This document shows, one piece after another, positions 6,281 to 59,729 of a DNA stretch of 64,000 bases. Made by a program: the position numbers and the translations under genes. The notes beneath the pieces were generated by a model. That model did not search any database. It was not told where the DNA came from and was given only the letters and a program-made list of their open reading frames with translations. The DNA lies in contig OZ024740.1 of assembly GCA_964016885.1 (NCBI GenBank), positions 415,338,001 through 415,402,000 on the forward strand, in the 5' to 3' direction. Every line of letters starts with the position of its first letter. Positions within the stretch are counted from its first letter, which is position 1. The stretch comes from Eledone cirrhosa (Eukaryota).

Positions 6281-6390
6281 GTATAATAGTTGGATGCAGT
6301 CTGATGAACTGTTAAACTTAACTGCTTCAGAGAGGCTCACTCTGGAAGAAGAATATCAGAACCAAATCAGCTGGCGGCAAGATGAAAAAA
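6281..6390 (+). CDS. NAT9: NAT9-like N-acetyltransferase, internal coding exon (first visible)
   Basis: Acceptor ttatAG and donor GTtggt. Translates YNSWMQSDELLNLTASERLTLEEEYQNQISWRQDEK, matching my recollection of NAT9 [34 protein letters not shown]. 110 bp; phase fits the next exon. Confidence 0.93.
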
Positions 6391-16076: not shown

Positions 16077-16335
16077 TAGTTTGTGCAAATGTGCTCTATA
16101 CTCATGCCTACAGGGTTAAATATTAGAAGCATTAATATTTAGTGGGCAAGAAAAGAAGCAGAGCGGTTATAAAAGAAATGAATACAAAGGTACTGATCAT
16201 TTTTTATGTTTTTCATACTCTTGAGAAGCTCGTTCTGGGCGAAACGTACGTAGGTGCATTGTTATATAAACATGTTTTAACGCGATATATACTTCTTTGT
16301 ATTCATTTCTTTTATATATATATATATATATATAT

Positions 16336-19099
16336 GACTGTTGTAAACACTAAATCCCTCCCCCATGAAGAATGCACCTCCCAACATAGACTGATAATTA
16401 GCGACCTAATAGTCAGGACGAGACGTACTAGACAACAGAAGAGGACTATCCTCAGGAGAAAAATATGGAAGCTAAAGGACCCCACAGCCAAAAATAAATT
16501 CCAAAGCATATTACTTGATGCTTTCGACAGTAAGGAAGAGCAATTAGAGTCGTACAAGGTAGAGGAACAGTGGGAATTCCTGAAAGCAAACCTGCTGACG
16601 GCGGCAGACGAAGTCTGTGGCTGGAGCAGGCCTGTAGGCAGGAGGAGAGTAACATGGTGGTGGAACAGTAAGGTGGAGGGGTCAATTAAGGCCAAAAAGC
16701 AGGCTTGGTAAGTATGGCAGGATGGGGGAAGCAGAGAAGACTATCAAGTGGCCAGGAGGGAAGCTAGGAGACAAGTGTACTTCGCAAGAAGGGATGCAGA
16801 GGAAAGAAAGTTCAAGCATGTTCTACAACGTGAGGACCAAAAACGTGAGGTGTTCAGGATTGCTAGGCAATGTGTCAAGGAAAACAGTGATATTGTCGGG
16901 GAGAAGTGTGTACTTAACGATGACGGCGTACTTGCCATCACCGAAGCCGATAAGAAGGTAGCTTGGAAGTGTCACTATGAAAGGCTACTAAATGAGGAGA
17001 ATAAATGGGAGAAAGACAGTCTCCCCCACATCGACCCAATAGGGGGACCAGCAGTGTTAGTCGAGGGTAGTATAATAAGTAAGGCAATCAAAGATATGAA
17101 GACGGGCAAGGCGGCTGGGCCTTCGGAAATAGTTGCCGAGATGCTGAAGGCATCTGGTACGGTGGGACACACCATGGTCACCCGGATAGTCAACCAAGTC
17201 ATACAGAATGGGGTTGTTCCGAAGGACTGGCGTAGCAGCATCATCGTTAACTGTTATAAGGGTATAGGAGTAACTATAGAGGCATTAAATTAATCGACCA
17301 GGTCATGAAGGTCACGGAAAAAGTAATAGCGCAACTAATCAGAGAGCGAATTGATCTAGATGAAATGCAATTCGGGTTTGTGTCAGGAAAAAGTACCACA
17401 GACGCTCTTTTCATTGTACGACAACTACAGGAGAAGTACCTAGCTAAAAGTAAACCCCTATACTTAGCTTTCGTCGACTTGGAGAAGGCCTTCGACAGAG
17501 TCCCCCGTTCCATTATCTGGTGGGCTCTTAGAAAACTAGGTGTTGATGAATGGCTTGTGAGAGCTATACAAGCCATGTATAAAGAAACAGTCAGCACGGT
17601 TAGAATTAACAACGAATATAGTGAAGAGTTTAGCGTAAAAGTTGGCGTCCATCAGGGCTCTGTTCTCAGCCCCCTACTATTTATTATTGCCCTCCAGGCT
17701 ATAACAGTGGAGTTCAAGACCGGCTGCCCATGGGAACTCCTATACGCAGATGATCTAACGCTCATAGCTGAATCAATGGCCGAGCTAGAGAAGAAATTCC
17801 AAACATGGAAGCATGGCCTAGAATCAAAAGGCCTTAAAATTAACCTGGCTAAGACTAAAGTTCTAGTTTGTAAGAAAGAAAATAAGGCGCCGGTCCCTTC
17901 CGGGGAGTGGCCATGCGCAGAGTGTAGGAAAGGCGTAGGTAGAAATTCCATTTTGTGTCCCAAATGCAAAGTTTGGGTGCATAAAAGATGTAGTGGGATC
18001 ACAGGTAAGCTAACTAAGAACATAGATTTTACATGTGGCCGGTGTTCTGGGGCAATAGGTAGCAGCGAGTGCCCACAAAATACTAGCTCTTTCAACTGCG
18101 CAGAGGGTTCTATAGAAATAGTGGACAGCTTCCGTTACCTGGGTGACAAAATCAGCAGTGGGGGAGGGTGCTCTGAAAGTACAGTAGCTAGAGTCAGAAC
18201 TGGGTGGAAAAAGTTCAGAGAGCTTATACCACTATTAGCTGCTAAAGGGTTCTCCCTAAAAATGAAAGGCAGGCTGTACGATGCCTGCATACGAACAGCA
18301 ATGTTGCATGGCAGTGAGACCTGGGCATTGTGTGCAGAGGATATACGCAGACTAGAGAGAAACGAAGCTTGCATGCTCCGCTGGATGTGTAATAGTAATA
18401 TACGTGAACGACAAAGCATAAACGAACTAAGGAAAAAATTAGAAATAAGAGGGATCAGATGTTGTTTACTCGAGAGAAGGCTACGTTGGTATGGCCACGT
18501 GATGCGCATGAAGGACGATAGCTGTGTAACAAAGTGCAGGGCAATAAAGATAGACAGTAGCCACGGAATAAGCAGACCCAGAAAAACCTGGGACGAGCTG
18601 ATAAACTCCGACCTCACACACTTACACCTCACCAAGACAATGTCACTGGACCGAGACCTTTGGCGGTACTCAGTAATAGAGAAGACCCGCCTTACCTAAA
18701 TACAAAGTAAAACCTACTACAGTCAGTAGGCATCTCTAACAAAATACACCCCCGTCCCACCACCCCCACCCCATCCACACCGCCCCCTTCTATGTAAAGT
18801 TATGTTGGTGCCACACCATCCAGGCCGAAACAAATGAGATCGTGTAGGTGTCACGACAAAAAAACACACAGTCCACGCTGTAATGTGGCCGTGTAGGCAA
18901 CACGGTAAAAACCTCCCAGACCCACACTGTAAATGTGGTTGGTGTTAGGAAGGGTATCCAACTGTAGAAAACCTGCCAGACAGTCCTATGCGAGCAAGAC
19001 AATCACTCTTGCCTCAAGTGGGAATACCCCCATCCAAACCCATGCAAGCGTGGAACACGGACGTTAAACGTTGATGATGATGATGATGATGATGATGAT
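16336..19099 (+). mobile_element. 5'-truncated RTE-clade LINE (copy A)
   Basis: RT motifs QFGF, AFVDLEKAFDRV, GVHQGSVLSPLLF, LLYADD, FRYLG; (GAT)n tail; stop at 16709 and a small deletion near 17270. Confidence 0.95.
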
Positions 19100-19434
19100 A
19101 TATATGGTCAGAACTCGTCGTTCCCTGTGAAGTGTAATGTAAATGCCATTTTTCTCATCTCTCTCCAGCCTATCGGTCCATTCATTCATATACCCGTATC
19201 ATCGCCCAGAATCCAATCTTTTGCTCTCTCTCAATGCTATTCTATAATTCTGTCTGGTTGTTTCTAAATAATCTTCTTGTATCTTAAAACCCCATTATTC
19301 GCTTATTATTACTGTTATATGCTTCTCCAATTATGCCCAAATTTCGAAGATTTCATTTAAACCCTCTCGCTAACTACCCCATACCCCTCCCACCCACCCC
19401 CACTCTCCACCATTATTATTAGGACCAATCATAA

Positions 19435-22400
19435 GTCAGCGGCCTATGCTATCACTCATGGTTGCTTGCCGATATGATGGATGGACTATGGAATTCTGGA
19501 GAGTCTGAAAAATCTGGACACTCAGTGACAATGCTAAAGATAAAGACAAATTCACCACATGCTGCCGGACGAAAAGACAAGGACTCCTCTTTGTTTCGGC
19601 CGCGGATGGCCAACATAACCCCCCCCCCCCCCCGCACCCCACCGTTCCCACCCACCAAACGCAATCCAAAACTTCAGAGTTGGTACCATGAATGTAGGCA
19701 CCTTAAAAGATCACTCTAACGAGGTTGTAGAAATGCTTGAACATAAGGAGGTTGATGTTTGCTGTATCCAAGAGACCAGGTGGAGGGGTGGGTCTGCTAG
19801 ATTCACTGTGGGTAAAAACGATGCTATAAGCTTTTCTGGGTGGGAAATGAAAATGGGCTGGGTGGGGTAGGAATCATGTTAGCAGAAAAATGGGTAGATA
19901 AGATAATAGACGTAAATAGAGTGAACGACAGAATAATTAAAATAAGACTTGTCCTAAATAGAACTACTGTGACAGTAATATCTGCGTATGTACCCCAAAC
20001 CGGACTGCCTGGCGCTATAAAAGACAGATTCTATGAGACATTGATGCTCACTACCTCCCAAATAACCGACAGTGACTACGTAATTATTGCTGGCGACCTA
20101 AATGGTCACGTTAGACAACATTGTGACGGCTATGACGGAATCCATGGAGGCTATGGGTTTGGTACTAGAAATGAGGAAGGCTCCAGAATCCTGGAATTCT
20201 GCGATGCAAATAACCTAACTATCTGTAACACTAACTTCAAAAAACGAGACAATCACTTGATCACCTATAGATCAGGGGAACACGCCAGTCAGATAGATTA
20301 TATCCTTACCAGAAGATGTGATAGAGTGTCTGTTGTAAACACTAAATCCCTCCCCCATGAAGAATGCACCTCCCAACATAGACTCATAGTCAGCGACCTC
20401 ATAGTCAGGACAAGACGTATTCGACAACAGAGAAGGACTATCCTCAGGAGAAAAATATGGAAGCTAAAGGACCCCACAGCCAGTAATAAATTTAAAAGCA
20501 TATTACTTGATGCTTTCAACAGTAAGGAAGTGAAATTAGAGTCGTACAATATAGAGGAACAGTGGGAATTCCTTAAAGCTAACCTGCTGAAGGCGGCAGA
20601 TGAAGTTTGTGGCTGGAGCAGGCCTATAGGCAGGAGGAGAGTAATGTGGTGGTGGAATAGTAAGGTGGAGGAGTCAATTAAGGCCAAAAAGCAGGCTTGG
20701 AAAGTATGGGGGGAATGGGGAAGTAGAGAAGACTATCAAGTGGCCAGGAAGGAAGCTAGGAGACAAGTGTACTTCGCAAGAAGGGAAGCAGAGGAAAGAA
20801 AGTTCAAACATGTTCTACAAAGCGAGGACCAAAAACGTGAGGTGTTCAGGATTGCTAGGCAATGTGTCAAGGAAAACCGTGATATTGTCGGGGAGAAGTG
20901 TGTCCTTAATGATGATGGTGTACTTGCCATCACTGACGCTGATAAGAAGGTAGCTTGGAAGTGTCACTACGAAAGGCTACTAAATGAGGAGAATAAGTGG
21001 GAGAAAGACAGTCTCCCTCACATCGATCCAATAGAGGGACCAGCAGTGCGAGTTGAAGGTAGTATAATAAGTAAGGGAATCAAAGATATGAAGACGGGTA
21101 AGGCGGCCGGGCCTTCGGAAATAGTTGCCGAAATGCTGAAAGCATCTGGAACAGTGGGACACACTATGGTCACCAGGAGAGTAAACCAAGTCATACAGAA
21201 TGGGGCCGTTCCGAAGGACTGGCGTAGCAGCATCATCATTAACTGCTACAAGGGTAAAGGAGATGCTCTTGATAGGGGTAACTATAGAGGCATTAAATTA
21301 ATCGACCAGGTAATGAAGGTCACAGAAAAAGTAATAGCGCAACTAATCTGAGAACGAAATGATCTAGATGAAATGCAGTTCGGGTTTGTGTCAGGTAAAA
21401 GTACCACAGACGCTCTTTTCATTGTATGACAACTACAAGAGAAGTACCTAGCTAAAAGTAAACCCTTATACTTAGCTTTTGTTGACTTGGAGAAAGCCTT
21501 TGACAGAGTCCCCCGCTCCATTATCTGGTGGGCGCTTAGAAAACTAGGTGTTGATGAATGGCTTGTGAGAGCTATACAAGCCATGTATAAAGAAACAGTC
21601 AGCAAAACGAATATAGTGAAGAGTTTAGCGTAAAAGTTGGTGTTCATCAGGGCTCCGTTCTTAGCCCCCTACTATTTATTATTGACCTTCAGGCTATAAC
21701 AGAGGAGTTCAAGACCGGCTGCCCATGGGAACTCCTATATGCAGATGATCTAATGCTCATAGCTGAATCAATGGCTGAACTAGAGAAGAAATTCCAAACA
21801 TGGAAGCATGGCCTAGAATCAAAAGGCCTTAAAGTTAACTTGTCTAAGACTAAAGTTCTAGTTTGTAGGAAGGAAAATAGGCACCGGTCCCATCTGCGAA
21901 ATGGCCATGCTCAGTGTGTAGGAAAGGAGTAGGCAGAAACTCCATTTTATGTCCCAAATGCAAAGTATGGGTGCATAAAAGAGATAGTGGGATCACAGGT
22001 AAGCTAACTAAGAATATAGATTTTATATGTGGCCAGTGCTCTGGTGCAATAAGTAGCAGCAAGTGCCCACAGAATACTAGTTCATTCCATTGCACAGATG
22101 GTTCTATAGAAATAGTGGACACCTTCCGTTACCTGGGTGACAAAATCAGCAGTGGGGGAGGGTGCTCTGAAAGTACAGTAGCTAGAGTCAGAACGGGATG
22201 GAAAAAGTTCAGAGAGCTGATACCACTATTGGCCGCTAAAGGGTTCTCTCTAAAAATGAAAGGCAGGCTGTATGATGCCTGCATACGAACAGCAATGTTA
22301 CATGGCAGTGAGACCTGGGCATTGTGTGCAGAGGATATACGCAGACTGGAGAGAAACGAAGCTTGCATGCTCCGCTGGATGTGTAATAGTAATATACGTG

Positions 22401-22921
22401 AACCGCAAAGCATAAACAAACTAAGGGAGAAATTAGGAATAAGAGGGATCAGATGTTGTTTACTCGAGAAAAAACTATGTTGGTACGGTCATGTGATGTG
22501 CATGAAAGACGACAGCTGTATAAAAAAGTGCAGGGCGATAAAAATAGACGGTAGCCACGAAGTAGGCAGACCCAGAAAGACCTGGGACGACTTGATAAAT
22601 TCCGACCTCACACACTTACACCTCTCCAAGACAATGTCACTGGACCGAGATCTTTGGCGCTACACAGTCATACAGAAGACCCGCCTTGCCTAAGTACAAA
22701 GCGAAACCTACAGTCAGTAGGCACCTCTAACAAAATACACCTCCGTCCCACTACCCCCATCCCATCCACACCACCCCCTTAAATGTGAAGTTATGTTGGT
22801 ACCACAACATCCAGACAGTCCTATACGAGCAGGACAACAAATCTTGCCTCAAGTGGGAAACCTCCCGTCCAAACCCATGCAAGCGTGGAAGATGGACGTT
22901 AAACGATGATGATGATGATGA
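19435..22921 (+). mobile_element. Near full-length RTE LINE (copy B): APE endonuclease plus RT, inactivated
   Basis: EN motifs TMNVGTL, CIQETRW, GDLNGHV, QIDYIL, SQHRL; RT broken by stops and frameshifts at about 21350-21900; (GAT)n tail. The 5' boundary is approximate. Confidence 0.93.
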
Positions 22922-22936
22922 TATATATATATATAC

Positions 22937-23261: not shown

Positions 23262-23483
23262 CTCCAGTCCTACAAACTGTAGAGTGCTTCTTATCCGATA
23301 TCTGCATTGCTTTATTGTACTACAATAAAACTCACCTCCTACATATATATATATATATATATATATTTATATTTATAGTTCAAGGAGACAACAAACAGAG
23401 GTACATTAGTTTCAATTAGTTTCATGCTTTATATCTCATCATCATCATCACCGTTTAACATCTATTTTTGCATGGGTTAGATA

Positions 23484-26603: not shown

Positions 26604-26660
26604 AATGTACTTTCATTATACTGGACTATGAGATGTACAAGGAGAATGGTGATGAAGTAG
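26604..26660 (+). CDS. NAT9: NAT9-like exon
   Basis: tttcAG...GTaagt; (K)CTFIILDYEMYKENGDEV, cf. NAT9 KCTFIVLD; 57 bp, phase 1-1. Confidence 0.93.
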   Translation, partial: NVLSLYWTMRCTRRMVMK

Positions 26661-27810: not shown

Positions 27811-28176
27811 TTATTATAATACCAATTTGAAATGACTGGACATCCAAACAATGCATAATAAAGAATTAGACATAGAGTTTTATTCATAAATTTTTCAGTC
27901 TAAAAAACTCTCATCAGTGAATATAAGATATCTTGTTTTATCAGTCGAAGTTTGTAAAAGCCAAGGTCAGATTATAGATGTTAAAGTATATATTTTCTTT
28001 TTCCTCTCCTAATAGCTTTGAGGATGATTGCAACTAAAACTTATGTGTTTTCAAACTTTGACTGATAAAACAAATGAGAGTCTTTTAGACTGAAAAATTT
28101 ATGAATAAAACACTACATTTAATTCTTTATTATACATTGTTTGACCTTCCAGTCATGTGAAATTATTATTATAATG
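27811..28176. repeat. Imperfect inverted repeat with arms of about 140-150 bp
   Basis: ttttattcataaatttttcagtctaaaa pairs with ttttagactgaaaaatttatgaataaaa; pairing extends to tgactgga/tccagtca. Confidence 0.85.
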
Positions 28177-28254
28177 TCACAATGCTTTGAAAAACTACCT
28201 CGAAACTTAATAATATATTTTTTATCATGCTTTTTTATTTCTTTGATTTTATAG

Positions 28255-28335
28255 AGTCAATGATTGGAGATATAAATTTGTTCTTCAATGAGCCTGATAT
28301 GGAAGATTCTGCTGAAATTGAAGTTATGATAGCAG
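28255..28335 (+). CDS. NAT9: NAT9-like exon
   Basis: tttatAG...GTtagt; (E)SMIGDINLFFNEPDMEDSAEIEVMIA, cf. NAT9 MVGDVNLFL...GEIEVMIA; 81 bp, phase 1-1. Confidence 0.95.
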
Positions 28336-28948
28336 GTTAGTAATATTACACCAACCACCGTCGAGACCTCAGACAGCCGAGCTCCTCAGCAAAATCAGAA
28401 CATCAGCATGAGTCCTGCGAGGTGGGGTGGCTGTCTACGAAACGCTGCCCTGACTTAGGCATTGAGTCTGTCACCCTCTCTCCTTCCCCCTCTCTTTCTT
28501 TCGCTGCCTAATAGACCTTGCTCTTTCCCTATTTTTCTTCACATTCTGGCATTTATAGTCCTTTCCTTTACTTTCCTATAGTCAGATCTGCCCTTCTTTA
28601 CCCCTCCCTCCTTTTTCATTATTTCATTTTGTTTTTATCTTTTTCCATCATTGTATAACTTCTATCTGTAAAATATAGTTGACATAATATGTTTATGTAT
28701 GACAGATAATGAAAATAAAATAAGAGACTATATTGTAACATTAAAAAAATATATTTAAAAAACAACAAAGGTTTGCTTCCTATTACATCTAGTTGTTTGA
28801 ATAATATTTGCTGGTGTTGGCGCAAGCAATAAATAAAATGGTTGTCCTATTTAAAAAACTTTTTTCCTAAAAGGAATACCAATTTATTTACTGTATTGGC
28901 CAACTGCATCAACCAAAACAAAAGGCTGAAACACTTGCTTGAGGCGGG

Positions 28949-30068: not shown

Positions 30069-31035
30069 TAAGCCTGATCAAGTTGAGCTAACTAGGTCTA
30101 CCTGTTCACAACAGTAATATCCACTGAATTGAATACTAAATCATAACAGTAGGCCTGCTCAAGTTGAGCTAACTAGGCCTACCTGATCACAACAGTAATA
30201 TTCACTGAATTGAATACTAAATCATAACAGTAGGCCTGCTCAAGTTGAGCTAACTAGGCCTACCTGATCACAACAGTAATATTCACTGAATTGAATACTA
30301 AATCATAACAGTAGGCCTGCTCAAGTTGAGCTAACTAGGCCTACCTGATCACAACAGTAATATTCACTGAATTGAATACTAAATCATAACAGTAGGCCTG
30401 CTCAAGTTGAGCTAACTAGGCCTACCTGATCACAACAGTAATATTCACTGAATTGAATACTAAATCATAACAGTAGGCCTGCTCAAGTTGAGCTAACTAG
30501 GTCTACCTGATCACAGCAGTAATATTCACTGAATTGAATACTAAATCATAACAGTAGGCCTGCTCAAGTTGAGCTAACTAGGCCTACCTGATCACAACAG
30601 TAATATTCACTGAATTGAATACTAAATCATAACAGTAGGCCTGCTCAAGTTGAGCTAACTAGGCCTACCTGATCACAACAGTAATATTCACTGAATTGAA
30701 TACTAAATCATAACAGTAGGCCTGCTCAAGTTGAGCTAACTAAGTCTACCTGATCACAGCAGTAATATTCACTGAATTGAATACTAAATCATAACAGTAA
30801 GCCTGCTCAAGTTGAGCTAACTAAGTCTACCTGATCACAACAGTAATATTCACTGAATTGAATACTAAATCATAATAGTAGGCCAGCTCAAGTTGAGCTA
30901 ACTAGGTCTACCTGATCACAACAGTAATATCCACTGAATTGAATACTAAATCTTAATAGTAGGCCTGCTCAAGTTGAGCTAACTAGGTCTACCTGATCAC
31001 AACAGTAATATCCACTGAATTAAATACGAAATCAT
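30069..31035. repeat. 81-bp tandem array (about 12 units)
   Basis: TAGGCCTGCTCAAGTTGAGCTAACTAGGCCTACCTGATCACAACAGTAATATTCACTGAATTGAATACTAAATCATAACAG; period 81. Confidence 0.96.
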
Positions 31036-31275
31036 GCTCTTTTTCGTAGTCTCTCTGGTGTTTATTTAATCCCAGAAAGATCAAAGACTAACCTAAATAA
31101 CAGTGAGTCTCAAGCTTTAGACACATACACATCATATAAACTATATAGATAAAGTAACTTTATATATATAGTGTATATGTATATAGTGTATATTATATAT
31201 ATAGTGTATATTATATAAAGTACCAGTAATGCACTGGGTAATTGCTGTCCTTGTGCCAAAAGTAGAAACAATTAT

Positions 31276-32237
31276 TGGACACCTTCCGTTACCTGGGTGA
31301 CAAAATCAGCAGTGGGGGAGGGTGCTCTGAAAGTACAGTAGCTAGAGTCAGAACGGGATGTAAAAAGTTCAGAGAGCTTATACCACTATTGGCCGCTAAA
31401 GGGTTCTCTCTAAAAATGAAAGGCAGGCTGTATGATGCCTGCATACGAACAGCAATGTTACATGGCAGTGAGACCTGGGCATTGTGTGCAGAGGATATAC
31501 GCAGACTGGAGAGAAACGAAGCTTGCATGCTCCGCTGGATGTGTAATAGTAATATACGTGAACGGCAAAGCATAAACGAACTAAGTGAGAAATTAGGAAT
31601 AAGAGGGATCAGATATTGTTTACTCGAGAGAAGACTACATTGGTATGGTCACGTGATGCGCATGAAAGACGACAGCTGTATAAAAAAGTGCAGGGCGATA
31701 AAAATAGACGGTAGCCACGAAGTAGGCAGACCCAGAAAAACCTGGGACGACTTGATAAATTCCGACCTCACACACTTACACCTCTCTAAGACAATGTCAC
31801 TGGACCGAGATCTTTGGCGCTACACAGTCATACAGAAGACCCACCTTGCCTAAGTACAAAGCGAAACCTACAGTCAGTAGGCACCTCTAACAAAATACAC
31901 CCCCGTCCCACTACCCCCACCCCATCCACACCACCCCCTTAAATGTGAAGTTATGTTGGTGCTACAACATCCAGTCCGAAACAAATGAGGTCGTGTAGGT
32001 GTCACGACAAAAAAAAACACACAGTCCACGCTGTAACGTGGCCGTGTAGGTAACACGGTAAAAACCTCCCAGTCCACACTGTAAACGTGGTTGGTGTTAG
32101 GAAGGGCATCCAGCTGTAGAAAATCCGCCAGACAGTCCTATACGAGCAGGACAACAAATCTTGCCTCAAGTGGGAAACCACCCGTCCAAACCCATTGAAG
32201 CATGGAAGATGGACATTAAACGATGATGATGATGATG
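31276..32237 (+). mobile_element. 5'-truncated RTE (copy C), preceded by a SINE 3' fragment
   Basis: DTFRYLG...WYGHVMR ORF, 3'UTR and (GAT)n; ATATAGTGTATATGT at 31166-31180 and 32238-32252. Confidence 0.93.
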
Positions 32238-32544
32238 ATATAGTGTATATGTTTTCTTTGTTTTTAAAATATGAGTGAAAGTGAGATGTCTCAACGAGTA
32301 TCCTCCACTACCAACTAACTTACCCTCAGCCTCTGGGTCCCAGTCGACAGGATGGAGAAATACAGGGCCCTGGAGGATGGCGAAGATGCACCATAACAGC
32401 CAATCCACCTCGTGGGGGCTCTGACCTGCAGGTAGCCAACTCCACTATGTTTCTAACAAGTATCACTTCTGATACAGTTTTTCCTGCACTGACATTATTC
32501 TATTATATTTTGTTTGTTGATGAAATTTTATTTGTATTTTGTAG

Positions 32545-32604
32545 AAGTTTCTTCTAGAAGAAAAGGATTTGGAAAAGAAGCTGTAATTTTGATGATGCTA
32601 TATG
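32545..32604 (+). CDS. NAT9: NAT9-like exon with GNAT acetyl-CoA binding motif A
   Basis: tttgtAG...GTaatt; (E)VSSRRKGFGKEAVILMMLY(G), containing R/Q-x-x-G-x-G; 60 bp, phase 1-1. Confidence 0.95.
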
Positions 32605-32699
32605 GTAATTATATGTTTATATTTAAAATATTTCATCATCTCTGCTAGCAAGGGTTGGATGGGTCTTTCTATTCCAATTCAGTACTCACACTATTAATC

Positions 32700-34923
32700 A
32701 TCATCATCATCATCATCAGGTTTAGCGTCCGTGTTCCACGCTTGCATGGGTTTGGACGGGGGTTTTCCCACTTGAGGCAAGAGTGGTTGTCTTGCTCGCA
32801 TAGGACTGTCTGGCGGGTTTTCTACAGCTGGATGCCCTTCCTAACACCAACCACATTTACAGTGTGGGGCTGGGAGGTTTTTACCGTGTTGCCTACATGG
32901 CCACATTACAGCGTAGACTGTGTGTTTTTTGTCGTGACACCTACACAATCTCATTTGTTTCGGCCTGGATGTTGTGGGACCAACATAACTTTACATTGAA
33001 AGGGGCGGTGTGGATGGGGTGGAGGTGGTGGGACGGGGGTGTGTTTAGATAGAGATGCCTACTGACTGTAGTAGGTTTTTACTTTGTATTTAGGTAAGGC
33101 GGGTCTTCTCTATTACTGAGTACCGCCAAAGGTCTCGGTCCAGTGACATTGTCTTGGAGAGGTGTAAGCGTGTGAGGTCGGAATTTATCATGTCGTCCCA
33201 GGTTTTTCTGGGTCTGCCTACTCCGTGGCTACCGTCTATCTTTATTGCCCTGCACTTTGTTATACAGCTGTCGTCTTTCATGCGCATCACGTGACCGTAC
33301 CAATGTAGCCTTCTCTCGAGTAAACAACATCTGATCCCTCTTATTTCTAATTTTTTCCTTAGTTCGTTTATGCTTAGCCATTCACGTATATTACTATTGC
33401 ACATCCAGCGGAGCATGCAAGCTTCGTTCCTCTCTAGTCTGCGTATATCCTCTGCACACAATGCCCAGGTCTCACTGCCATGCAGCATTGCTGTTCGTAT
33501 GCAGGCATCGTATAACCTGCCTTTCATTTTTAGGGAGAACCCTCTAGCGGCTAATAGTGGTATAAGCTCTCTGAACTTTTTCCATCCAGTTCTGACTCTA
33601 GCTACTGTACTTTCAGAGCACCCTCCCCCACTGCTGATTTTGTCACCCAGGTAACGGAAGCTGTCCACTATTTCTATAGAACCCTCTGCGCAATTGAAAG
33701 AGCTAGTATTTAGTGGGCACTTGCTGCTACTTATTGCACCAGAGCACCGGCCACATGTAAAATCTATGTTCTTAGTTAGCTTACCTGTGATCCCACTACA
33801 TCTTTTATGCACCCATACTTTGCATTGGGGACATAAAATGGAGTTTCTACCTACGCCTTTCCTACACACTGAGCATGGCCATTTCCCGGAAGGGACCGCC
33901 GCCTTATTTTCTTTCCTACAAACTAGAACTTTAGTCTTAGCCAGGTTAATTTTAAGGCCTTTTGATTCTAGGCCGTGCTTCCATGTTTGGAATTTCTTCT
34001 CTAGTTCGGTCATTGATTCAGCTATGAGCGTTAGATCATCTGCGTATAGGAGTTCCCATGGGCAGCCGGTCTTGAACTCCTCTGTTATAGCCTGAAGGGC
34101 AATAATAAATAGTAGGGGGCTAAGAACAGAGCCCTGATGGACACCAACTTTTACGCTAAACTCTTCACTATATTCGTTGTTAATTCTAACCTTGCTGACT
34201 GTTTCTTTATACATGGCTTGTATAGCTCTCACAAACCATTCGTCAACACCTAGTTTTCTAAGAGCCCACCAGATAATGGAACGGGGGACTCTGTCGAAGG
34301 CTTTCTCCAAGTTGACAAAAGCTAAGTATAGGGGTTTACTTTTAGCTAGGTACTTCTCCTGTAGTTGTCGTACAATGAAAAGAGCGTCTGTGGTACTTTT
34401 GCCTGACACAAACCCGAACTGCATTTCATCTAGATCAATTCTCTCTCTGATTAGTTGCGCTATTACTTTTTCCGTGACCTTCATGACCTGGTCGATTAAT
34501 TTAATGCCTCTATAGTTACTCCTATCTAGGGCATCTCCTTTTCCCTTATAGCAGTTAACGATGATGCTGCTACGCCAGTCCTTCGGAACAACCCCATTCT
34601 GTACGACTTGGTTAACTATCTGGGTAACCATGGTGTGTCCCACCGAAACAGATGCCTTCAGCATCTCAGCAACTATTTCCGAAGGCCCAGCCGCCTTACC
34701 CGTCTTCATATCTTTGATTGCCTTACTTATTATACTACCCTCGACTAACATTGCTGGTCCCTCTATTGGGTTGATGTGGGGGTGACTGTCTTTCTCCCAT
34801 TTATTCTCCTCATTTAGAAGCCTTTCGTAGTGACACTTCCAAGCTACCTTCTTATCAGCGTCAGTGATGGCAAGTATGCCATCATCGTTAAGTACACACT
34901 TCTCCCCGACAATATCACGGTTT
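32700..34923 (-). mobile_element. 5'-truncated RTE (copy D) with an intact 553-aa RT ORF
   Basis: ORF 33090-34751; (ATC)n tail; TSD TATTAATC at 32692-32699 and 34924-34931. Confidence 0.95.
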
Positions 34924-35061
34924 TATTAATCTGTTCAAATAATATGTGTATATTTACATATACATTGTCACAGTCTCAGCTACCTACTCTGTATATATAC
35001 AGATATAACTTTAGCGTACATTTCAGCTGTTTAGCACACTTCTTAATCTCTATATATATAG

Positions 35062-35277
35062 CAGTCCACGCTGTAATGTGGCCGTGTAGGTAACACGGTA
35101 AAAACCTCCCAGTCCACACTGTAAACGTGGTTGGTGTTAGGAAGGGCATCCAGCCATAGAAAACCCGCCAGACAGTCCTATACAAGCAGGACAACCAATC
35201 TTGCCTCAAGTGGGAAAACTCCCGTCCAAACCCATCCAAGCGTGGAAGATGGACATTAAACGATGATGATGATGATA
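35062..35277 (+). mobile_element. Short RTE 3'-end insertion
   Basis: 3'UTR plus (GAT)n; ATAGCAGT duplicated at 35058 and 35275. Confidence 0.8.
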
Positions 35278-35319
35278 GCAGTATGTATTGTTTACATGTC
35301 TACTTATTAAAAATGCATT

Positions 35320-36410
35320 CTCTCTCTCTGGTCCGACCCCTCCACTTCCCCCATCTTCCTTTCCCCACCCCTCCCCTCCTTCAAACGCGCACGCAATCTC
35401 TGCACCCTCCTCGTCCACAGCTCCTTACCCCTCAACCCACGCTCTTCTTCCTCCTCCAGTTCACTTCCCTGCTCCAGACCCTGTTACCATACCTGCCCCC
35501 ACATCACCAACACCACCACCTTCCAGGGTCCCAATGGTCACTCTCTCTCTGTCTGGCATGCCTTCCGCTGCACCTCCTCTAACCTAGTCTATGGACTTCA
35601 CTGCACGGAGTGTAGCACAACTTACGTCGGGCAGACTGGACGTCACCTGGCGGACCGTTTCACGGAACACCTCCGGGATATTCGCCTCGGCAGGAGTTCC
35701 CCGATCGCCCGCCACTTTCGCTCCCCTGGACATTCCGCCCACCACCTCACAGTCTGTGGCCTTCTCCAATGCCATGGAACACCCGGCACCCGCCTCATGG
35801 TCGAACAATGCACCATCTTCACCCTCCAAACCCATAATCACACACCCCGGCCTGAACTCCCCACCCCTATTCCTTTAGCCTTCGACCCCCCACCCTTTCC
35901 CCACTAACACCTCTAACACACTTCCCCTTTCACTCCCCCCCTGGCCCATCCCACAACTAACTATACTAACATCCCCACCCCTCCCTCTAACTCGCACACA
36001 CCCACCTGAACATATATACATGCACTCACACCATCCACACACCCTACTACCACCACTAACCCTCACCCACACATCCACTCCGACCACCCCACAACTAACA
36101 TCACTAACCTCCCCCCGACTCCACGCACACGAACACACACCATCACACACCCACACACACCCACACCTATGTACACCACCCACTCCACACACCCAACCAC
36201 CACTAACTCCCACTTACACACCCGCTTTCCACCCTTTCCCCATCACATGTAATACTAACACGCCATTTTGTTTCTGAGCACACAACACACACACAGAAAC
36301 AAAATGGCGTAGGACAGAACAAAGGAGAGGCACAGAAACAAAGAAAGGAATCCCCAGTCACTGAAGAGGTCACAGAGTGTGTGACAAAAGAACTATGACA
36401 ATATATAAAC
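35320..36410 (+). mobile_element. Penelope-like element fragment (GIY-YIG endonuclease, degenerate)
   Basis: My translation in a frame not in the ORF track: SFKRARNLCTLLVHS...TCPHITNTTTFQGPNG...FRCTSSNLVYGLHCTECSTTYVGQTGRHLADRFTEHLRDIR...PIARHF..PGH. Confidence 0.8.
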
Positions 36411-37561: not shown

Positions 37562-40500
37562 TTAAATTGGAAACCTTTAAAATGGGTGGTTTTATTTCAT
37601 AGGGACAGAGCCATTTTGGCCAGGTTGGTAACTAAAGGGTTAAATTGGAAACCTTTAAAATGGGTGGTTTTATTTCATAGGGACAGAGCCATTTTGGCCA
37701 GGTTGGTAACTAAAGGGTTAAATTGGAAACCTTTAAAATGGGTGGTTTTATTTCATAGAGATAGAGCCATTTTGGCCAGGTTGGTAACTAAAGGGTTAAA
37801 TTGGAAACCTTTAAAATGGGTGGTTTTATTTCATAGGGATAGAGCCATTTTGGCCAGGTTGGTAACTAAAGGGTTAAATTGGAAACCTTTAAAATGGGTG
37901 GTTTTATTTCATAGGGATAGAGCCATTTTGGCCAGGTTGGTAACTAAAGGGTTAAATTGGAAACCTTTAAAATGGGTGGTTTTATTTCATAGGGATAGAG
38001 CCATTTTGGCCAGGTTGGTAACTAAAGGGTTAAATTGGAAACCTTTAAAATGGGTGGTTTTATTTCATAGGGATAGAGCCATTTTGGCCAGGTTGGTAAC
38101 TAAAGGGTTAAATTGGAAACCTTTAAAATGGGTGGTTTTATTTCATAGGGATAGAGCCATTTTGGCCAGGTTGGTAACTAAAGGGTTAAATTGGAAACCT
38201 TTAAAATGGGTGGTTTTATTTCATAGGGATAGAGCCATTTTGGCCAGGTTGGTAACTAAAGGGTTAAATTGGAAACCTTTAAAATGGGTGGTTTTATTTC
38301 ATAGGGATAGAGCCATTTTGGCCAGGTTGGTAACTAAAGGGTTAAATTGGAAACCTTTAAAATGGGTGGTTTTATTTCATAGGGATAGAGCCATTTTGGC
38401 CAGGTTGGTAACTAAAGGGTTAAATTGGAAACCTTTAAAATGGGTGGTTTTATTTCATAGGGATAGAGCCATTTTGGCCAGGTTGGTAACTAAAGGGTTA
38501 AATTGGAAACCTTTAAAATGGGTGGTTTTATTTCATAGGGATAGAGCCATTTTGGCCAGGTTGGTAACTAAAGGGTTAAATTGGAAACCTTTAAAATGGG
38601 TGGTTTTATTTCATAGAGCCAGAGCCATTTTGGCCAGGTTGGTAACTAAAGGGTTAAATTGGAAACCTTTAAAATGGGTGGTTTTATTTCATAGGGATAG
38701 AGCCATTTTGGCCAGGTTGGTAACTAAAGGGTTAAATTGGAAACCTTTAAAATGGGTGGTTTTATTTCATAGAGCCAGAGCCATTTTGGCCAGGTTGGTA
38801 ACTAAAGGGTTAAATTGGAAACCTTTAAAATGGGTGGTTTTATTTCATAGGGATAGAGCCATTTTGGCCAGGTTGGTAACTAAAGGGTTAAATTGGAAAC
38901 CTTTAAAATGGGTGGTTTTATTTCATAGGGATAGAGCCATTTTGGCCAGGTTGGTAACTAAAGGGTTAAATTGGAAACCTTTAAAATGGGTGGTTTTATT
39001 TCATAGGGATAGAGCCATTTTGGCCAGGTTGGTAACTAAAGGGTTAAATTGGAAACCTTTAAAATGGGTGGTTTTATTTCATAGGGATAGAGCCATTTTG
39101 GCCAGGTTGGTAACTAAAGGGTTAAATTGGAAACCTTTAAAATGGGTGGTTTTATTTCATAGGGATAGAGCCATTTTGGCCAGGTTGGTAACTAAAGGGT
39201 TAAATTGGAAACCTTTAAAATGGGTGGTTTTATTTCATAGGGATAGAGCCATTTTGGCCAGGTTGGTAACTAAAGGGTTAAATTGGAAACCTTTAAAATG
39301 GGTGGTTTTATTTCATAGGGATAGAGCCATTTTGGCCAGGTTGGTAACTAAAGGGTTAAATTGGAAACCTTTAAAATGGGTGGTTTTATTTCATAGAGCC
39401 AGAGCCATTTTGGCCAGGTTGGTAACTAAAGGGTTAAATTGGAAACCTTTAAAATGGGTGGTTTTATTTCATAGGGATAGAGCCATTTTGGCCAGGTTGG
39501 TAACTAAAGGGTTAAATTGGAAACCTTTAAAATGGGTGGTTTTATTTCATAGGGATAGAGCCATTTTGGCCAGGTTGGTAACTAAATTGGAAACCTTTAA
39601 AATGGGTGGTTTTATTTCATAGGGACAGAGCCATTTTGGCCAGGTTGGTAACTAAAGGGTTGAATTGGAAACCTTTAAAATGGGTGGTTTTATTTCATAG
39701 GGACAGAGCCATTTTGGCCAGGTTGGTAACTAAAGGGGTAAATTGGAAACCTTTAAAATGGGTGGTTTTATTTCATAGGGATAGAGCCATTTTGGCCAGG
39801 TTGGTAACTAAATTGGAAACCTTTAAAATGGGTGGTTTTATTTCATAGAGCCTGAGCCATTTTGGCCAGGTTGGTAACTAAAGGGTTAAATTGGAAACCT
39901 TTAAAATGGGTGGTTTTATTTCATAGGGATAGAGCCATTTTGGCCAGGTTGGTAACTAAATTGGAAACCTTTAAAATGGGTGGTTTTATTTCATAGGGAC
40001 AGAGCCATTTTGGCCAGGTTGGTAACTAAAGGTTTGAATTGGAAACCTTTAAAATGGGTGGTTTTATTTCATAGGGACAGAGCCATTTTGGCCAGGTTGG
40101 TAACTAAAGGGTTAAATTGGAAACCTTTAAAATGGGTGGTTTTATTTCATAGGGATAGAGCCATTTTGGCCAGGTTGGTAACTAAAGGGTTAAATTGGAA
40201 ACCTTTAAAATGGGTGGTTTTATTTCATAGGGATAGAGCCATTTTGGCCAGGTTGGTAACTAAAGGGTTAAATTGGAAACCTTTAAAATGGGTGGTTTTA
40301 TTTCATAGAGCCAGAGCCATTTTGGCCAGGTTGGTAACTAAAGGGTTAAATTGGAAACCTTTAAAATGGGTGGTTTTATTTCATAGGGATAGAGCCATTT
40401 TGGCCAGGTTGGTAACTAAAGGGTTAAATTGGAAACCTTTAAAATGGGTGGTTTTATTTCATAGGGATAGAGCCATTTTGGCCAGGTTGGTAACTAAAGG

Positions 40501-46935: not shown

Positions 46936-47030
46936 GAATTGAGATTCTGAAAATAACAAAGTTGACAGCCAAAATAGGAATCACTAACAACATAAGCCTG
47001 GGTTTATTCTATAAACTAGGTTTTATTGAG
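46936..47030 (+). CDS. NAT9: NAT9-like exon
   Basis: ttgtAG...GTaggt; (G)IEILKITKLTAKIGITNNISLGLFYKLGFIE, cf. NAT9 LTKFEAKIGQGNEPSIRMFQKLHF; 95 bp. Confidence 0.93.
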
Positions 47031-47642: not shown

Positions 47643-48300
47643 TCAGTGTTTGACGAACCATGACGTTCAATGCTGTTTGATCTCAGGGGAGATCCCTCAG
47701 TGTTTGACGAACCATGACGTTCTACACTGTTTGATCTCAGGGGAGATCCCTCAGTGTTTGATGAATCATCGGTATATAGTATAGTCCAAGAACAAAGAGG
47801 AAACCATCAACCTTAGAGTAAATGTCCTGTGGGCTGACACCAAAATTATTGATCAGCTACCTCTAAACACTAAGCCTGCTCAAGTTGAGCTAACTAAGTC
47901 TACATGATCACAACAGTAATATTCATTGAATTGAATACTAAATCATAACAGTAGGCCTGCTCAAGTTGAGCTAACTAGGTCTACCTGATCACAACAGTAA
48001 TATCCACTGAATTGAATACTAAATCATAACAGTAGGCCTGCTCAAGTTGAGCTAACTAGGTCTACCTGATCACAACAGTAATATCCACTGAATTGAATAC
48101 TAAATCATAACAGTAGGCCTGCTCAAGTTGAGCTAACTAGGTCTACCTGATCACAACAGTAATATCCACTGAATTGAATACTAAATCATAACAGTAGGCC
48201 TGCTCAAGTTGAGCTAACCATAATGTTCCACGCTGTTTGATCTCAGGGGAGATCCCTCAGTGTTTGACAAACCATGACATTCCTCCCTGTTCGATCTCAA
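47643..48300. repeat. 54-bp tandem repeat interrupted by a second 81-bp array (about 47868-48218)
   Basis: TCAGTGTTTGACGAACCATGACGTTC...GATCTCAGGGGAGATCCC at 47643, 47697 and 47751; resumes at about 48216. Confidence 0.88.
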
Positions 48301-48979: not shown

Positions 48980-51304
48980 TCATCATCATGATTGTCTTGC
49001 TCGCATAGGACTGTCTGGCAGGTTTTCTACAGTTGGATACCCTTCCTAACACCAACCACATTTACAGTGTGGGTCTGGGAGGTTTTTACCGTGTTGCCTA
49101 CACGGCCACATTACAGCGTGGACTGTGTGTTTTTTTGTCGTGACACCTACACGATCTCATTTGTTTCGGCCTGGATGGCGTGGCACCGACATAACTTTAC
49201 ATAGATGGGGGTGGTGTGGATGGGGTGGGGGTGGTGGGACGGGGTGTATTTTGTTAGAGATGCCTACTGGCTGTAGTAGGTTTTACTATGTATTTAGGTA
49301 AGGCGGGTCTTCTCTGTTACTGAGTACCGCCAAAGGTCTCGGTCCAGTGACATTGTCTTGGAGAGGTGTAAGTGTGTAAGGTCGGAGTTTATCAGCTCGT
49401 CCCAGGTTTTTCTAGGTCTGCCTATTCCGTGGCTACCGTCTATCTTTATTGCCCTGCACTTTATTATACAGCTATCGACTTTCATGCGCATCACGTGTCC
49501 ATACCAACGTAGCCTTCTCTCGAGTAAACAACATCTGATCCCTCTTATTTCTAATTTTTTCCTTAGTTCGTTTATGCTTTGCCGTTCACGTATATTACTG
49601 TTACACATCCAGCGGAGCATGCAAGCTTCATTCCTCTCTAGTCTGCGTATATCCTCTGCACACAATGCCCAGGTCTCACTGCCATGCAACATTGCTGTTC
49701 GTATGCAGGCATCATACAACCTGCCTTTCATTTTTAGGGAGAACCCTTTAGCAGCTAATAGTGGTATAAGCTCTCTGAACTTTTTCCATCCAGTTCTGAC
49801 TCTAGCTACTGTACTTTCTGAGCACCCTCCCCCACTGCTGATTTTGTCACCCAGGTAACGGAAGCTGTTCACTATTTCTATAGAGCCCTCTGCGCAGTTG
49901 TAAGAGCTAGTATTTTGTGGGCACTTGCTGCTACTTATTGCACCAGAGCACCGGCCACATGTAAAATCTATGTTCTTAGTTAGCTTACCTGTGATCCCAC
50001 TACATCTTTTATGCACCCAAACTTTGCATTTGGGACATAAAATGGAGTTTCTACCTACGCCTTTGCTACACACTGAGCATGGCCATTTCCCAGAAGGGAC
50101 CGCCGCCTTATTTTCTTTCCTACAAACTAGAACTTTAGTCTTAGCCAGGTTAATTTTAAGTCCTTTTGATTCTAGGCCATGCTTCCATGTTTGGAATTTC
50201 TTCTCTAGCTCGGCCATTGATTCAGCTATGAGTGTCAGGTCGTCTGCGTATAGGAGTTCCCATGGGCAGCCGGTCTTGAACTCCTCTGTTATAGCCTGAA
50301 GGGCAATAATAAATAGTAGGGGGCTAAGAACAGAGCCCTGATGGACGCCAACTTTTACGCTAAACTCTTCACTATGTTCGTTGTTAATTCTAACCTTGCT
50401 GACTGTTTCTTTATACATGGCTTGTATAGCTCTCACAAGCCATTCGTCAACACCTAGTTTTCTAAGAGCCCACCAGATAATGGAGCGGGGGACTCTGTCG
50501 AAGGCTTTCTCCAAGTCGACAAAAGCTAAGTAGAGGGGTTTACCTTTAGCTAGGTACTTCTCCTGTAGTTTTTGTACAATGAAAAGAGCGTCTGTGGTAC
50601 TTTTGCCTGACACAAACCCGAACTGCATTTCATCTAGGTCAATTCTCTCTCTGATTAGTTGCGCTATTACTTTTTCCGTGACCTTCATGACCTGGTCGAT
50701 TAATTTAATGCCTCTATAGTTACTCCTATCTAGGGCATCTTCTTTACCCTTATAACAGTTAACGATGATGCTGCTATGCCAGTCCTTTGGAACAACCCCA
50801 TTCTGTACGACTTGGTTAACTATGCGGGTGACCATGGTGTGTCCCACCATGCCAGATGCCATCAGCATCTCAGCGACTATTTCCGAAGGCCCAGCCGCCT
50901 TACCCGTCTTCATATCCTTGATTGCCTTACTTATTATACTCCCCTCGACTAACACTGCTGGTCCCTCTATTGGGTCGATGTGGGGGAGACTGTCTTTCTC
51001 CCATTTATTCTCCTCATTTAGTAGCCTTTCATAGTGACACTTCCAAGCTACCTTCTTATCAGCGTCAGTGATGGCAAGTACGCCGTCATCATTAAGTACA
51101 CACTTCTCCCCGACAATATCACGGTTTTCCTTGACACATTGCCTAGCAATCCTGAACACCTCACGTTTTTGGTCCTCGCGTTGTAGAACATGCTTGAACT
51201 TTCTTTCCTCTGCTTCCCTTCTTGCGAAGTACACTTGTATCCTAGCTTCCCTCCTGGCCACTTGATAGTCTTCTCTACTTCCCCCATCCCGCCATACTTT
51301 CCAA
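48980..51304 (-). mobile_element. 5'-truncated RTE (copy E) with an intact 655-aa ORF
   Basis: ORF 49294-51261 with all RT motifs; (TA)n on both sides. Confidence 0.95.
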
Positions 51305-59609: not shown

Positions 59610-59729
59610 GAATCACGTAGCGATGTGTTTCAAGAAATAACCCTCTCTTTACCCGTAACTGATAAACTCCTTAATTTTTTGAGGCAAGAATCCCAATCTA
59701 TTGGAATGAGAATTTGTCTCTCACCATAA
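59610..59729 (+). CDS. NAT9: NAT9-like terminal coding exon
   Basis: ttacAG acceptor; ESRSDVFQEITLSLPVTDKLLNFLRQESQSIGMRICLSP-TAA, cf. NAT9 SSVFQEVTLRL; phase 0 fits the previous exon. Confidence 0.9.
   Translation, partial: ESRSDVFQEITLSLPVTDKLLNFLRQESQSIGMRICLSP

What the first reader, a model, noticed from the sequence alone, without database searches (positions are those of the whole stretch)
31276..33665. Acetyl-CoA-motif NAT9 exon lies in the loop of a ~1-kb RTE-RTE inverted repeat
Seen: RTE copy C (+, ends 32237) and copy D (-, starts 32700) are closely similar and tail-to-tail. The pre-mRNA could therefore form a stem of about 960 bp with a loop of about 460 nt holding the 60-bp exon 32545-32604. 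This exon is phase 1-1, a multiple of 3, and encodes the acetyl-CoA motif RRKGFG. Established: inverted repeats flanking exons can promote skipping or back-splicing and are ADAR substrates. Inference: skipping would give an in-frame NAT9 lacking motif A, possibly modulated by A-to-I editing, which is extensive in coleoids.
Basis: partly seen in the sequence, partly recalled or inferred. Interest (0 to 1): 0.72.

Follow-up and report, generated by a model that had tools for sequence, protein, structure and literature searches.

The report
Inverted LINE pair around NAT9 exon
Two separate copies of a young jumping gene sit in opposite directions on either side of a short exon of an octopus acetyltransferase gene and are predicted to pair in the unspliced RNA, but the one spliced RNA set seen keeps the exon, so this is likely a chance, tolerated arrangement rather than a splicing switch.

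Summary
Two LINE copies, C (31270-32239, +) and D (32697-34924, -), are 91% identical over 977 nt, tail-to-tail. Their 457-nt loop holds the 60-nt, in-frame NAT9 exon 5 with the RxxGxG motif. They are independent insertions from different subfamilies, each with its own target-site duplication. D is very young, and nothing suggests selection on the pairing.

The family has roughly 35,000 copies, and about 0.05-0.5% of sampled DNA lies in such loops. In the one spliced run laid, the only spliced contig leaving exon 4 goes into exon 5; a second reads through into intron 4. Depth is about 8 and contigs cannot show absence, so minor skipping stays open; editing was untestable. A scallop RefSeq isoform lacks exactly this exon, so that form is annotated outside octopods. 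Skipping would delete the motif plus most of a core helix.

Verdict: a new, probably tolerated member of a known kind (TBXT-type inverted pair). The scan has noted similar exon-flanking inverted repeats on other DNA (unchecked).

The parts
6281..6390 (+). NAT9 exon 2 (exon 1 lies 9.6 kb upstream of the window, at G000:C1:415328364-415328440)
   Evidence: tblastn with P0001, genome search, splice ends
26604..26660 (+). NAT9 exon 3, 57 nt, phase 1-1; its orthologue is missing from O. sinensis RefSeq isoform X3
   Evidence: joined to exon 4 in X4 record 9
28255..28335 (+). NAT9 exon 4, 81 nt, phase 1-1
   Evidence: X4 contigs leave it into exon 5 and into intron 4
28336..28494 (+). Read-through of exon 4 into intron 4 (stop at 28338-28340; AATAAA at 28714); would give a 109-aa product without the motif
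   Evidence: X4 record 10, 189 nt, 0 differences
31166..31180 (+). Likely upstream copy of C's target-site duplication (15-nt match repeated at 32238)
31214..31269 (+). ~57-nt piece of another dispersed repeat (SINE-like 3' end) joined to C's 5' end inside the duplication
   Evidence: 5 other window hits at 91-96%; 171 hits in 1.56 Mb
31270..32239 (+). LINE copy C: 5'-truncated, ~970 nt, (GAT)n tail; left arm of the predicted stem
32240..32696 (+). 457-nt loop: an older dispersed repeat (about 32255-32450), branch/acceptor region, exon 5, donor plus 92 nt
32545..32604 (+). NAT9 exon 5, 60 nt, phase 1-1: RxxGxG loop and 12 of the 15 residues of the following helix
   Evidence: included in the X4 contig
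32697..34924 (-). LINE copy D: 5'-truncated, 2.2 kb, open 610-aa frame (RVT_1 + PHD), 8-nt target-site duplication (32692 / 34924); its 3' ~970 nt is the right arm
46936..47030 (+). NAT9 exon 6
59610..59726 (+). NAT9 exon 7, coding part (3' UTR follows)
16335..19100 (+). Copy A of the same family (intron 2); alternative partner for D and E
   Evidence: 94.7% to D over 2230 nt
19680..22922 (+). Copy B (intron 2), the longest copy seen here, with an endonuclease domain; sister to C; start approximate
48989..51304 (-). Copy E (intron 6); could pair with A, B or C

Best explanation
Two independent LINE insertions landed tail-to-tail around NAT9 exon 5 and are predicted to fold the unspliced RNA into a ~930-bp hairpin that ADAR would likely edit, but exon 5 is spliced in, and the pair is likely a tolerated by-product of a high-copy family rather than a selected switch. 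Shown: anatomy, separate target-site duplications, different subfamilies, D's youth, an exon 4-exon 5 contig. Predicted: the hairpin. Inferred: D, the younger copy, completed the pair; the 457-nt loop leaves room for exon definition; the hairpin is removed with the introns; any skipped product is minor and likely misfolds, because the exon carries most of a core helix.
For: Independent origin: different truncation points and duplications. C groups with B (97.1%) and D with a copy 165 Mb away (98.1%). All 39 other top-scored hits of D are 99% identical, against 97-98% for C. No sign of selection on pairing: C-D identity (92.1% ungapped) equals C-A (91.9%) and C-E (92.0%); 0 states are shared only by C and D among 14 copies; G.U-compatible versus A.C mismatches are 28 vs 22, p=0.48. 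Abundance: 18 young copies in 11 of 39 sampled 40-kb blocks (11.5 per Mb, ~35,000 genome-wide). Inverted repeats >=500 nt, >=85%, gap 60-1000 nt occur in 9 of 39 blocks and enclose 0.47% of bases; >=900 nt with gap <=500 occur in 2 of 39 blocks (0.05%). The gene region is five times richer, with 6 copies in 104 kb. RNA: in X4 the single spliced contig leaving 28335 continues with the first 30 letters of exon 5 and runs on for 255 letters (letters checked). Structure: exon 5 is residues 109-128, and the helix is 117-131 in a pLDDT-96 model matching NAT9 7OVU at TM 0.89. In humans, many constitutive exons are also flanked by Alu pairs, and pairing stability differs little between skippable and constitutive exons (d=-0.12; PMC13019027 sections 20-21).
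Against: The geometry is at the strong end. The stem is about three times an Alu, the loop is 457 nt against 1,448 bp for TBXT (PMC10901737 passage), and enrichment for skipping rises with proximity (PMC13019944 section 4). None of the 7 adjacent copy pairs in 1.56 Mb was an opposite-strand pair closer than 2.7 kb. A uniform model expects only ~0.5-13 such tail-to-tail cases for this family per 200,000 exons (exon number assumed). The RNA evidence is one run of unrecorded tissue, contigs only, depth about 8. With 9 junction reads, 20% skipping would leave at most one skip read 44% of the time. The exon 5 donor (ATG|GTAATT) lacks the usual -2 A and +5 G (consensus recalled). A read-through contig at exon 4 shows intron 4 is not always removed. 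A scallop model shows the exon-less form is annotated in a mollusc.
Confidence: 0.72

Rival explanations
1. The hairpin slows removal of intron 4 by holding exon 5's acceptor in the loop. Some transcripts then read through exon 4's donor and end at an intronic poly(A) site or are degraded, which lowers the NAT9 dose or gives a 109-aa stub.
For: X4 record 10 crosses the exon 4 donor without differences for 159 intron bases, at depth 5.2 beside ~8.2 for the spliced contig (contig depth is a poor measure of level). The intron stretch has no other match in the window or in 1.56 Mb sampled. AATAAA lies at 28714.
Against: One contig in one run. Nascent RNA, priming on the A-rich stretch near 28740-28770, or DNA carry-over explain it equally well. 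The exon 4 donor (CAG|GTTAGT) is itself non-consensus at +3. Nothing links the read-through to C/D, 3 kb away. A search for this mechanism in papers gave two general reviews only (listing).
Confidence: 0.12
2. TBXT-type loop-out: the new D insertion causes substantial, tissue- or editing-dependent skipping of exon 5, giving a folded, acetyl-CoA-dead NAT9 that keeps its microtubule/JNK role.
For: Tight, long predicted stem. In-frame exon. The exact deletion is annotated in Ylistrum balloti isoform X2. Fly Mnat9 lacking the 6-residue motif still rescues phenotypes (PMC10382493 passages; PMC11826463 passages). Squid editing targets repeats in introns and UTRs (PMC9068888 passages).
Against: Only inclusion was seen among spliced contigs. 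The exon removes 20 residues including most of the helix between two core strands, far more than the 6-residue fly deletion. Only 1 of 153 homologues spanning the region lacks it. The three O. sinensis isoforms seen all keep it. D is too young for the pair to be an old mechanism, and there is no sign of selection.
Confidence: 0.08
3. The inverted copies mainly drive back-splicing: a 60-nt circle of exon 5 (C/D) or a 198-nt circle of exons 3-5 (A/D or B/D).
For: Reverse-complementary flanks exist at both scales. The A-D duplex is predicted slightly stronger than C-D over the same segment, -1869 vs -1717 kcal/mol.
Against: Small exons circularise poorly (PMC4479058 passages). A and B lie 10-14 kb upstream in intron 2. 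The X4 contig leaving the exon 4 donor is linear. The library type is not on record.
Confidence: 0.05
4. One arm is an assembly artefact or a local inverted duplication.
For: D's junction at 32687-32728 was skipped as a repeat when reads were laid, so it was not seen directly. The DNA runs may come from the assembled animal.
Against: The arms differ by 9%, belong to different subfamilies, have different lengths and have their own duplications. The C-to-loop junction (32223-32283) is present without differences in contigs of X1 and X2.
Confidence: 0.02

Closest known systems
Hominoid TBXT exon 6 skipping by the AluSx1-AluY inverted pair (PMC10901737, passages seen)
   Same: An older and a younger retrotransposon copy in opposite orientation flank one exon whose skipping is in frame; the nearest pair is expected to win over distal partners.
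   Different: LINE arms of ~970 nt instead of ~300-nt Alus; a loop of 457 nt against 1,448 bp. In TBXT the skipped isoform was shown and depends on both Alus; here only inclusion was seen.
Genome-wide inverted Alu (and ~9% LINE1) duplexes around primate exons (PMC13019027 sections 20-21; PMC13019944 section 4)
   Same: A by-product of a high-copy family, with a predicted stable intronic duplex across an exon; many such exons are constitutive.
   Different: An invertebrate, RTE-like LINE. No equivalent survey for cephalopods turned up in my searches.
RTE-2_OV and related octopus RTE LINEs (PMC9115989, abstract and section 6)
   Same: Endonuclease and reverse transcriptase in what is likely one ORF, a microsatellite 3' tail, a young and abundant family in an octopod.
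   Different: This family has a PHD finger after the RT; RTE-2_OV is described with a C2H2 finger. The sequences were not compared.
NAT9 / Mnat9 alpha/beta-tubulin N-acetyltransferase (PDB 7OVU; PMC10382493, PMC11826463 passages)
   Same: Orthologue: 83% identical to O. bimaculoides NAT9-like, single copy, RxxGxG motif intact.
   Different: The fly acetylation-dead alleles change or delete 6 residues; exon 5 skipping would delete 20.

Membership tests
NAT9 (GNAT, Acetyltransf_3) | Orthology and fold match to NAT9 | tested here: met
   Joined exons give 199 aa, 166/199 identical to P0001. P0001 hits PF13302 and 7OVU at E 1e-53. The model of P0001 matches 7OVU at TM 0.89.
NAT9 (GNAT, Acetyltransf_3) | Q/RxxGxG/A acetyl-CoA motif in this exon | tested here: met
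   RRKGFG in exon 5; motif definition in PMC10382493.
RTE-clade non-LTR retrotransposon | AP-type endonuclease plus reverse transcriptase | tested here: met
   Exo_endo_phos_2 in copy B, RVT_1 in copy D; unnamed relatives of ~1040-1060 aa carry both in one ORF.
RTE-clade non-LTR retrotransposon | Short 3' UTR ending in a microsatellite; 5' truncation with target-site duplication | tested here: met
   (GAT)n tails; 15-nt and 8-nt duplications; microsatellite tails are called common in RTEs in PMC9115989.
RTE-clade non-LTR retrotransposon | RT phylogeny groups with reference RTE elements | not tested
   None of the 120 listed relatives was named as a clade reference; no tree with references was built.
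Loop-out exon skipping by an inverted TE pair (TBXT type) | Inverted repeat pair in the two introns flanking the exon, predicted to pair | tested here: met
   889/977 identical; 927 C-D pairs in the MFE fold.
Loop-out exon skipping by an inverted TE pair (TBXT type) | Exon-skipped transcript exists | tested here: inconclusive
   One spliced run: an inclusion contig is present and no exon 4-exon 6 contig is listed; contigs at depth ~8 cannot exclude 20-30% skipping.
Loop-out exon skipping by an inverted TE pair (TBXT type) | Skipping depends on both repeats | not testable with these tools
   Needs a minigene or D-null alleles.
Loop-out exon skipping by an inverted TE pair (TBXT type) | Skipped form is confined to lineages carrying the pair | tested here: inconclusive
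   A scallop RefSeq model lacks the same exon; the scallop's introns and its read support were not seen.
ADAR-hyper-edited inverted repeat | Long intramolecular dsRNA in a transcript | tested here: met
   Predicted only: helices up to 72 bp, with 22 A.C mismatches.
ADAR-hyper-edited inverted repeat | Locus-specific A-to-G clusters in RNA that are absent from DNA | not testable with these tools
   Contigs from all family copies pile on the arms; the two listed changes also occur in the DNA-like runs.
Exonic circRNA with reverse-complementary flanks | Back-splice junction | tested here: inconclusive

The most novel reading that the evidence does not exclude
A very recent LINE insertion (D) closed a 1-kb hairpin around NAT9's acetyl-CoA exon and turned a rare, ancestral molluscan splice variant into an editing-tuned switch. 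The switch would separate NAT9's acetyltransferase activity from its acetylation-independent microtubule/JNK role, by exon 5 skipping or by termination in intron 4. If D still segregates, it is a natural allelic test of loop-out skipping in a cephalopod.
Probability: 0.07. Interest if true: 0.62.

Novelty: new member of a known kind. Interest (0 to 1): 0.22.

Why it matters
If the best explanation holds, it matters little on its own. It is one of probably hundreds of octopod exons caught in repeat hairpins, and it shows that even a ~930-bp predicted stem with a 457-nt loop is compatible with exon inclusion. Its use is as a test case. The geometry is unusually tight and D is very young, so the locus could show whether Alu-style loop-out skipping works in cephalopods and whether their strong ADAR activity shields exons from it. 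If the novel case held, it would be an invertebrate TBXT analogue that splits the catalytic from the non-catalytic role of NAT9.

Tried and rejected
No RNA holder listed: the run search returned 4 runs of one study, none on record as RNA. X4 is treated as RNA only because its contigs join exons.

Parts without X4 cover (intron bins) were not used as evidence. The X4 loose end at 32524 has no match in the window and is taken as a short AT-rich match from elsewhere.

A-to-G calling over the arms failed because 1,097 X4 contigs from many family copies were laid. An empty-site joint for C or D was not among the 15 joints shown of 47, so zygosity is unresolved.

A genome-wide pattern count of tail-to-tail pairs could not be run; sampled blocks were used. 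The first structure model, from a 4-sequence alignment, was useless (pLDDT 38) and was replaced. Pfam on single exons gave nothing above cut-off.

O. sinensis isoform X3 looked like an exon 5 skip by length but lacks exon 3. The mouse paper naming Nat9 isoform usage gave no exon detail in the passages seen. Gene conversion or compensatory change between C and D was rejected. A local inverted duplication was rejected.
Full report
1. Observation. The window lies at G000:C1:415338001-415402000 in a 3.0-Gb genome. BLAST aligns 31270-32239 (+) with the reverse complement of 32700-33673 at 889/977 (91%), both ending in (GAT)n tails that face each other. The loop is 457 nt; the acceptor at 32545 lies 305 nt from C's tail and the donor at 32604 lies 92 nt from D's tail. 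The exon is 60 nt, AG/GT, phase 1-1, and aligns to residues 109-128 of O. bimaculoides NAT9-like P0001. ViennaRNA's MFE fold of 31200-33750 pairs 927 C-D bases in 51 helices, the longest 72 bp.

2. The gene. A genome search with P0001 finds 7 matches, all at this locus: exon 1 upstream of the window, then 6281-6390, 26604-26660, 28255-28335, 32545-32604, 46936-47030 and 59610 onward. Joined in a script they give 199 aa: 166/199 identical to O. bimaculoides, 163 to O. vulgaris/sinensis, 152 to Argonauta hians. The animal is therefore likely an octopod other than these (inference). Exons 3, 4 and 5 are all phase 1-1 multiples of three. An AlphaFold model of P0001 (72-sequence alignment, pLDDT 96.4) puts a strand at 100-107, a helix at 117-131 and a strand at 137-143, and matches Arabidopsis NAT9 with acetyl-CoA, 7OVU, at TM 0.89. 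Skipping would remove the RxxGxG loop and 12 of 15 helix residues. In the GNAT fold this helix is the crossover between two core strands (recalled), so the product likely misfolds (inference). Fly Mnat9 alleles that keep function without acetylation lose or change only six residues (PMC10382493 passages; PMC11826463 passages).

3. The repeats. D holds an open 610-aa frame with RVT_1 and PHD matches; copy B holds an endonuclease domain. Tails are microsatellites, as described for RTEs (PMC9115989 section 6). I did not build a tree with references, so 'RTE' is likely, not shown. C has a 15-nt and D an 8-nt flanking duplication, and their 5' truncations differ. Among 14 young copies aligned on C, C groups with B (97.1%) and D with a copy at C1:250 Mb (98.1%). 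No state is shared only by C and D; C is no closer to D (92.1%) than to A (91.9%) or E (92.0%); G.U-compatible and A.C mismatches are 28 and 22 (p=0.48). The 39 other top-scored hits of D (40 scored of 2017 candidates) are all 99% identical; those of C (40 of 3944) are 97-98%. So D is the younger copy and likely completed the pair recently. Inside the gene, A, B and C (+) can each pair with D or E (-): six pairs, of which C/D is the closest.

4. Chance. I sampled 39 blocks of 40 kb (1.56 Mb, 14 contigs, round coordinates of my choice, not random). They hold 18 young copies of at least 300 nt in 11 of 39 blocks, 11.5 per Mb or ~35,000 genome-wide. Inverted repeats of any family with arms >=500 nt, >=85% and a gap of 60-1000 nt gave 16 alignments (about 10 loci) in 9 of 39 blocks and enclosed 0.47% of bases; arms >=900 nt with a gap <=500 gave 3 alignments in 2 of 39 blocks, 0.05%. 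With an assumed 200,000 internal exons, that is about 100-900 exons in such loops if placement is neutral. Against this reading: none of those 16 came from this LINE family; of 7 adjacent copy pairs, 3 were opposite-strand and none closer than 2.7 kb; and a uniform model gives 0.5 (genome density) to 13 (this gene's density, 6 copies in 104 kb) tail-to-tail cases this tight. The locus is in the tail of the distribution but needs no special cause.

5. RNA. The run search listed 4 runs of one study, all kept as contigs. X4's contigs join exons, so I treat it as RNA; its tissue and library are not on record. On 28120-28940, record 9 (326 nt, depth 8.3) carries exon 3's end joined to exon 4 and stops at 28335. 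One contig leaves 28335 with the first 30 letters of exon 5 (checked) and 255 loose letters, longer than exons 5 and 6 together. Record 10 (189 nt, depth 5.2, no differences) runs from exon 4 into intron 4. Bin depths are accounted for by these three if the inclusion contig has depth ~8.2. No contig with exon 6 letters is listed at 28335, although one would have the same 30-nt anchor as the inclusion contig; 39 loose-end rows were not shown. Contigs drop rare variants. With 9 junction reads, the chance of at most one skip read is 0.44 at 20% skipping, 0.07 at 40% and 0.02 at 50%. So inclusion is shown and is probably the main form in this sample; minor or tissue-specific skipping is open. On 32150-35050, family-wide contigs swamp the arms; both listed base changes also occur in DNA-like runs, so editing cannot be called. 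The C-to-loop junction is present in X1 and X2; D's junction was skipped as a repeat.

6. Other species. Of 159 NAT9-family proteins in hand (the best 120 of 141 hits, plus cluster members), 153 span exons 4 and 6. One of them, Ylistrum balloti RefSeq isoform X2, lacks exactly 109-128. This cuts both ways. The exon-less form is annotated in a mollusc far from octopods, so finding it here would not by itself implicate C/D; it also shows the exon can be skipped. It is a pipeline model whose read support and introns I did not see, and word-based searching under-samples deletion isoforms. The three O. sinensis isoforms seen keep exon 5; X3 lacks exon 3.

7. Mechanism. Most likely (0.72): as D is transcribed, its tail pairs with the already made C, a long duplex forms (predicted), ADAR likely edits it (inferred from repeat-directed editing in squid, PMC9068888 passages), exon 5 is still defined in the loop and spliced in (shown for one sample), and the duplex leaves with the introns. 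Rivals: slowed intron 4 removal with read-through (0.12), substantial functional skipping (0.08), circles (0.05; small exons circularise poorly, PMC4479058 passages), artefact (0.02).

8. What is known. Loop-out skipping by inverted retrotransposon pairs is established for TBXT (PMC10901737 passages). Genome-wide in primates, inverted pairs are enriched at alternative exons, more so when close; deleting one Alu reduced skipping in 7 of 8 reporters by ~1 to >40% PSI (PMC13019944 section 4). Many constitutive exons are flanked too, and the link is mainly for weak-acceptor exons (PMC13019027 sections 20-21). The locus has the anatomy of this class; the defining skipped transcript was not seen, so I do not file it as a loop-out event. 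Searches for NAT9 with exon skipping, cephalopod circRNA with inverted repeats, octopus RTE with editing and related terms listed no paper on this locus or on cephalopod loop-out skipping; the library lacks most subscription papers. I read no supplements; those of PMC9068888 may list edited repeat families. Four unchecked notes of this scan report similar inverted repeats around exons on other DNA; I did not test them and do not count them as support.

9. Verdict. A real feature and a new member of a known kind; probably ordinary. Interest 0.22. The novel case (a young insertion creating an editing-tuned split of NAT9's two roles) has probability ~0.07 and would deserve ~0.62.

Noticed in passing
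window 28306-28494 (+): An X4 contig reads through the exon 4 donor into intron 4 with no differences; a stop follows at once (109-aa product) and AATAAA lies at 28714. Retained intron, intronic polyadenylation or artefact.
   Followed up: partly
P0179 (XP_060073676.1, Ylistrum balloti): RefSeq NAT9 isoform X2 lacks exactly the 20 residues of this exon, which implies the same exon borders in a scallop. It is 1 of 153 homologues spanning the region.
   Followed up: partly
P0002 (XP_029634201.1, Octopus sinensis); window 26604-26660: O. sinensis isoform X3 lacks the 57-nt exon 3, another phase 1-1 exon.
   Followed up: partly
window 31166-32252: C's target-site duplication seems to enclose a ~57-nt SINE-like piece and TA-rich slippage repeats 5' of the LINE: possibly a chimeric (template-switch) insertion.
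   Followed up: partly
window 33090-34922 (-): D keeps an unbroken 610-aa frame with a PHD finger after the RT domain; relatives with RT+PHD are common among unnamed marine sequences.
   Followed up: partly
window 37562-45879: 8.3-kb array of a 78-bp unit (108 copies, 95% matches) in intron 5; single related units lie at about 26140 and 52933, so it likely grew from a dispersed element.
   Followed up: no
window 8370-12898 and 23477-25732: Two arrays of the same 34-bp unit in intron 2; an 81-bp unit forms arrays at 30072-31035 and 47866-48218.
   Followed up: no
window 35311-35907 (+): 198-aa open stretch with a weak GIY-YIG match (E 0.004, below cut-off): possibly a Penelope-like remnant.
   Followed up: partly
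window 14600-15650 (-): Decayed coding-like stretch that looks like a DNA-transposon remnant by eye; not tested.
   Followed up: no
window 35062-35276 (+): A 215-nt 3' fragment of the same LINE family 137 nt past D's 5' end could pair with D's tail (90.8%), a weak competitor of C.
   Followed up: partly
L004/L005 (G000:C1:415330433-415334897): A 1.35-kb plus 0.5-kb inverted repeat (92-97%) lies inside NAT9 intron 1, upstream of the window; it encloses no known exon.
   Followed up: no
L116-L119 (G000:C3:290031000-290040000): A near-perfect (99.9%) inverted repeat of at least 4.3 kb per arm with a gap of about 130 nt, probably a tandem array that flips orientation.
   Followed up: no
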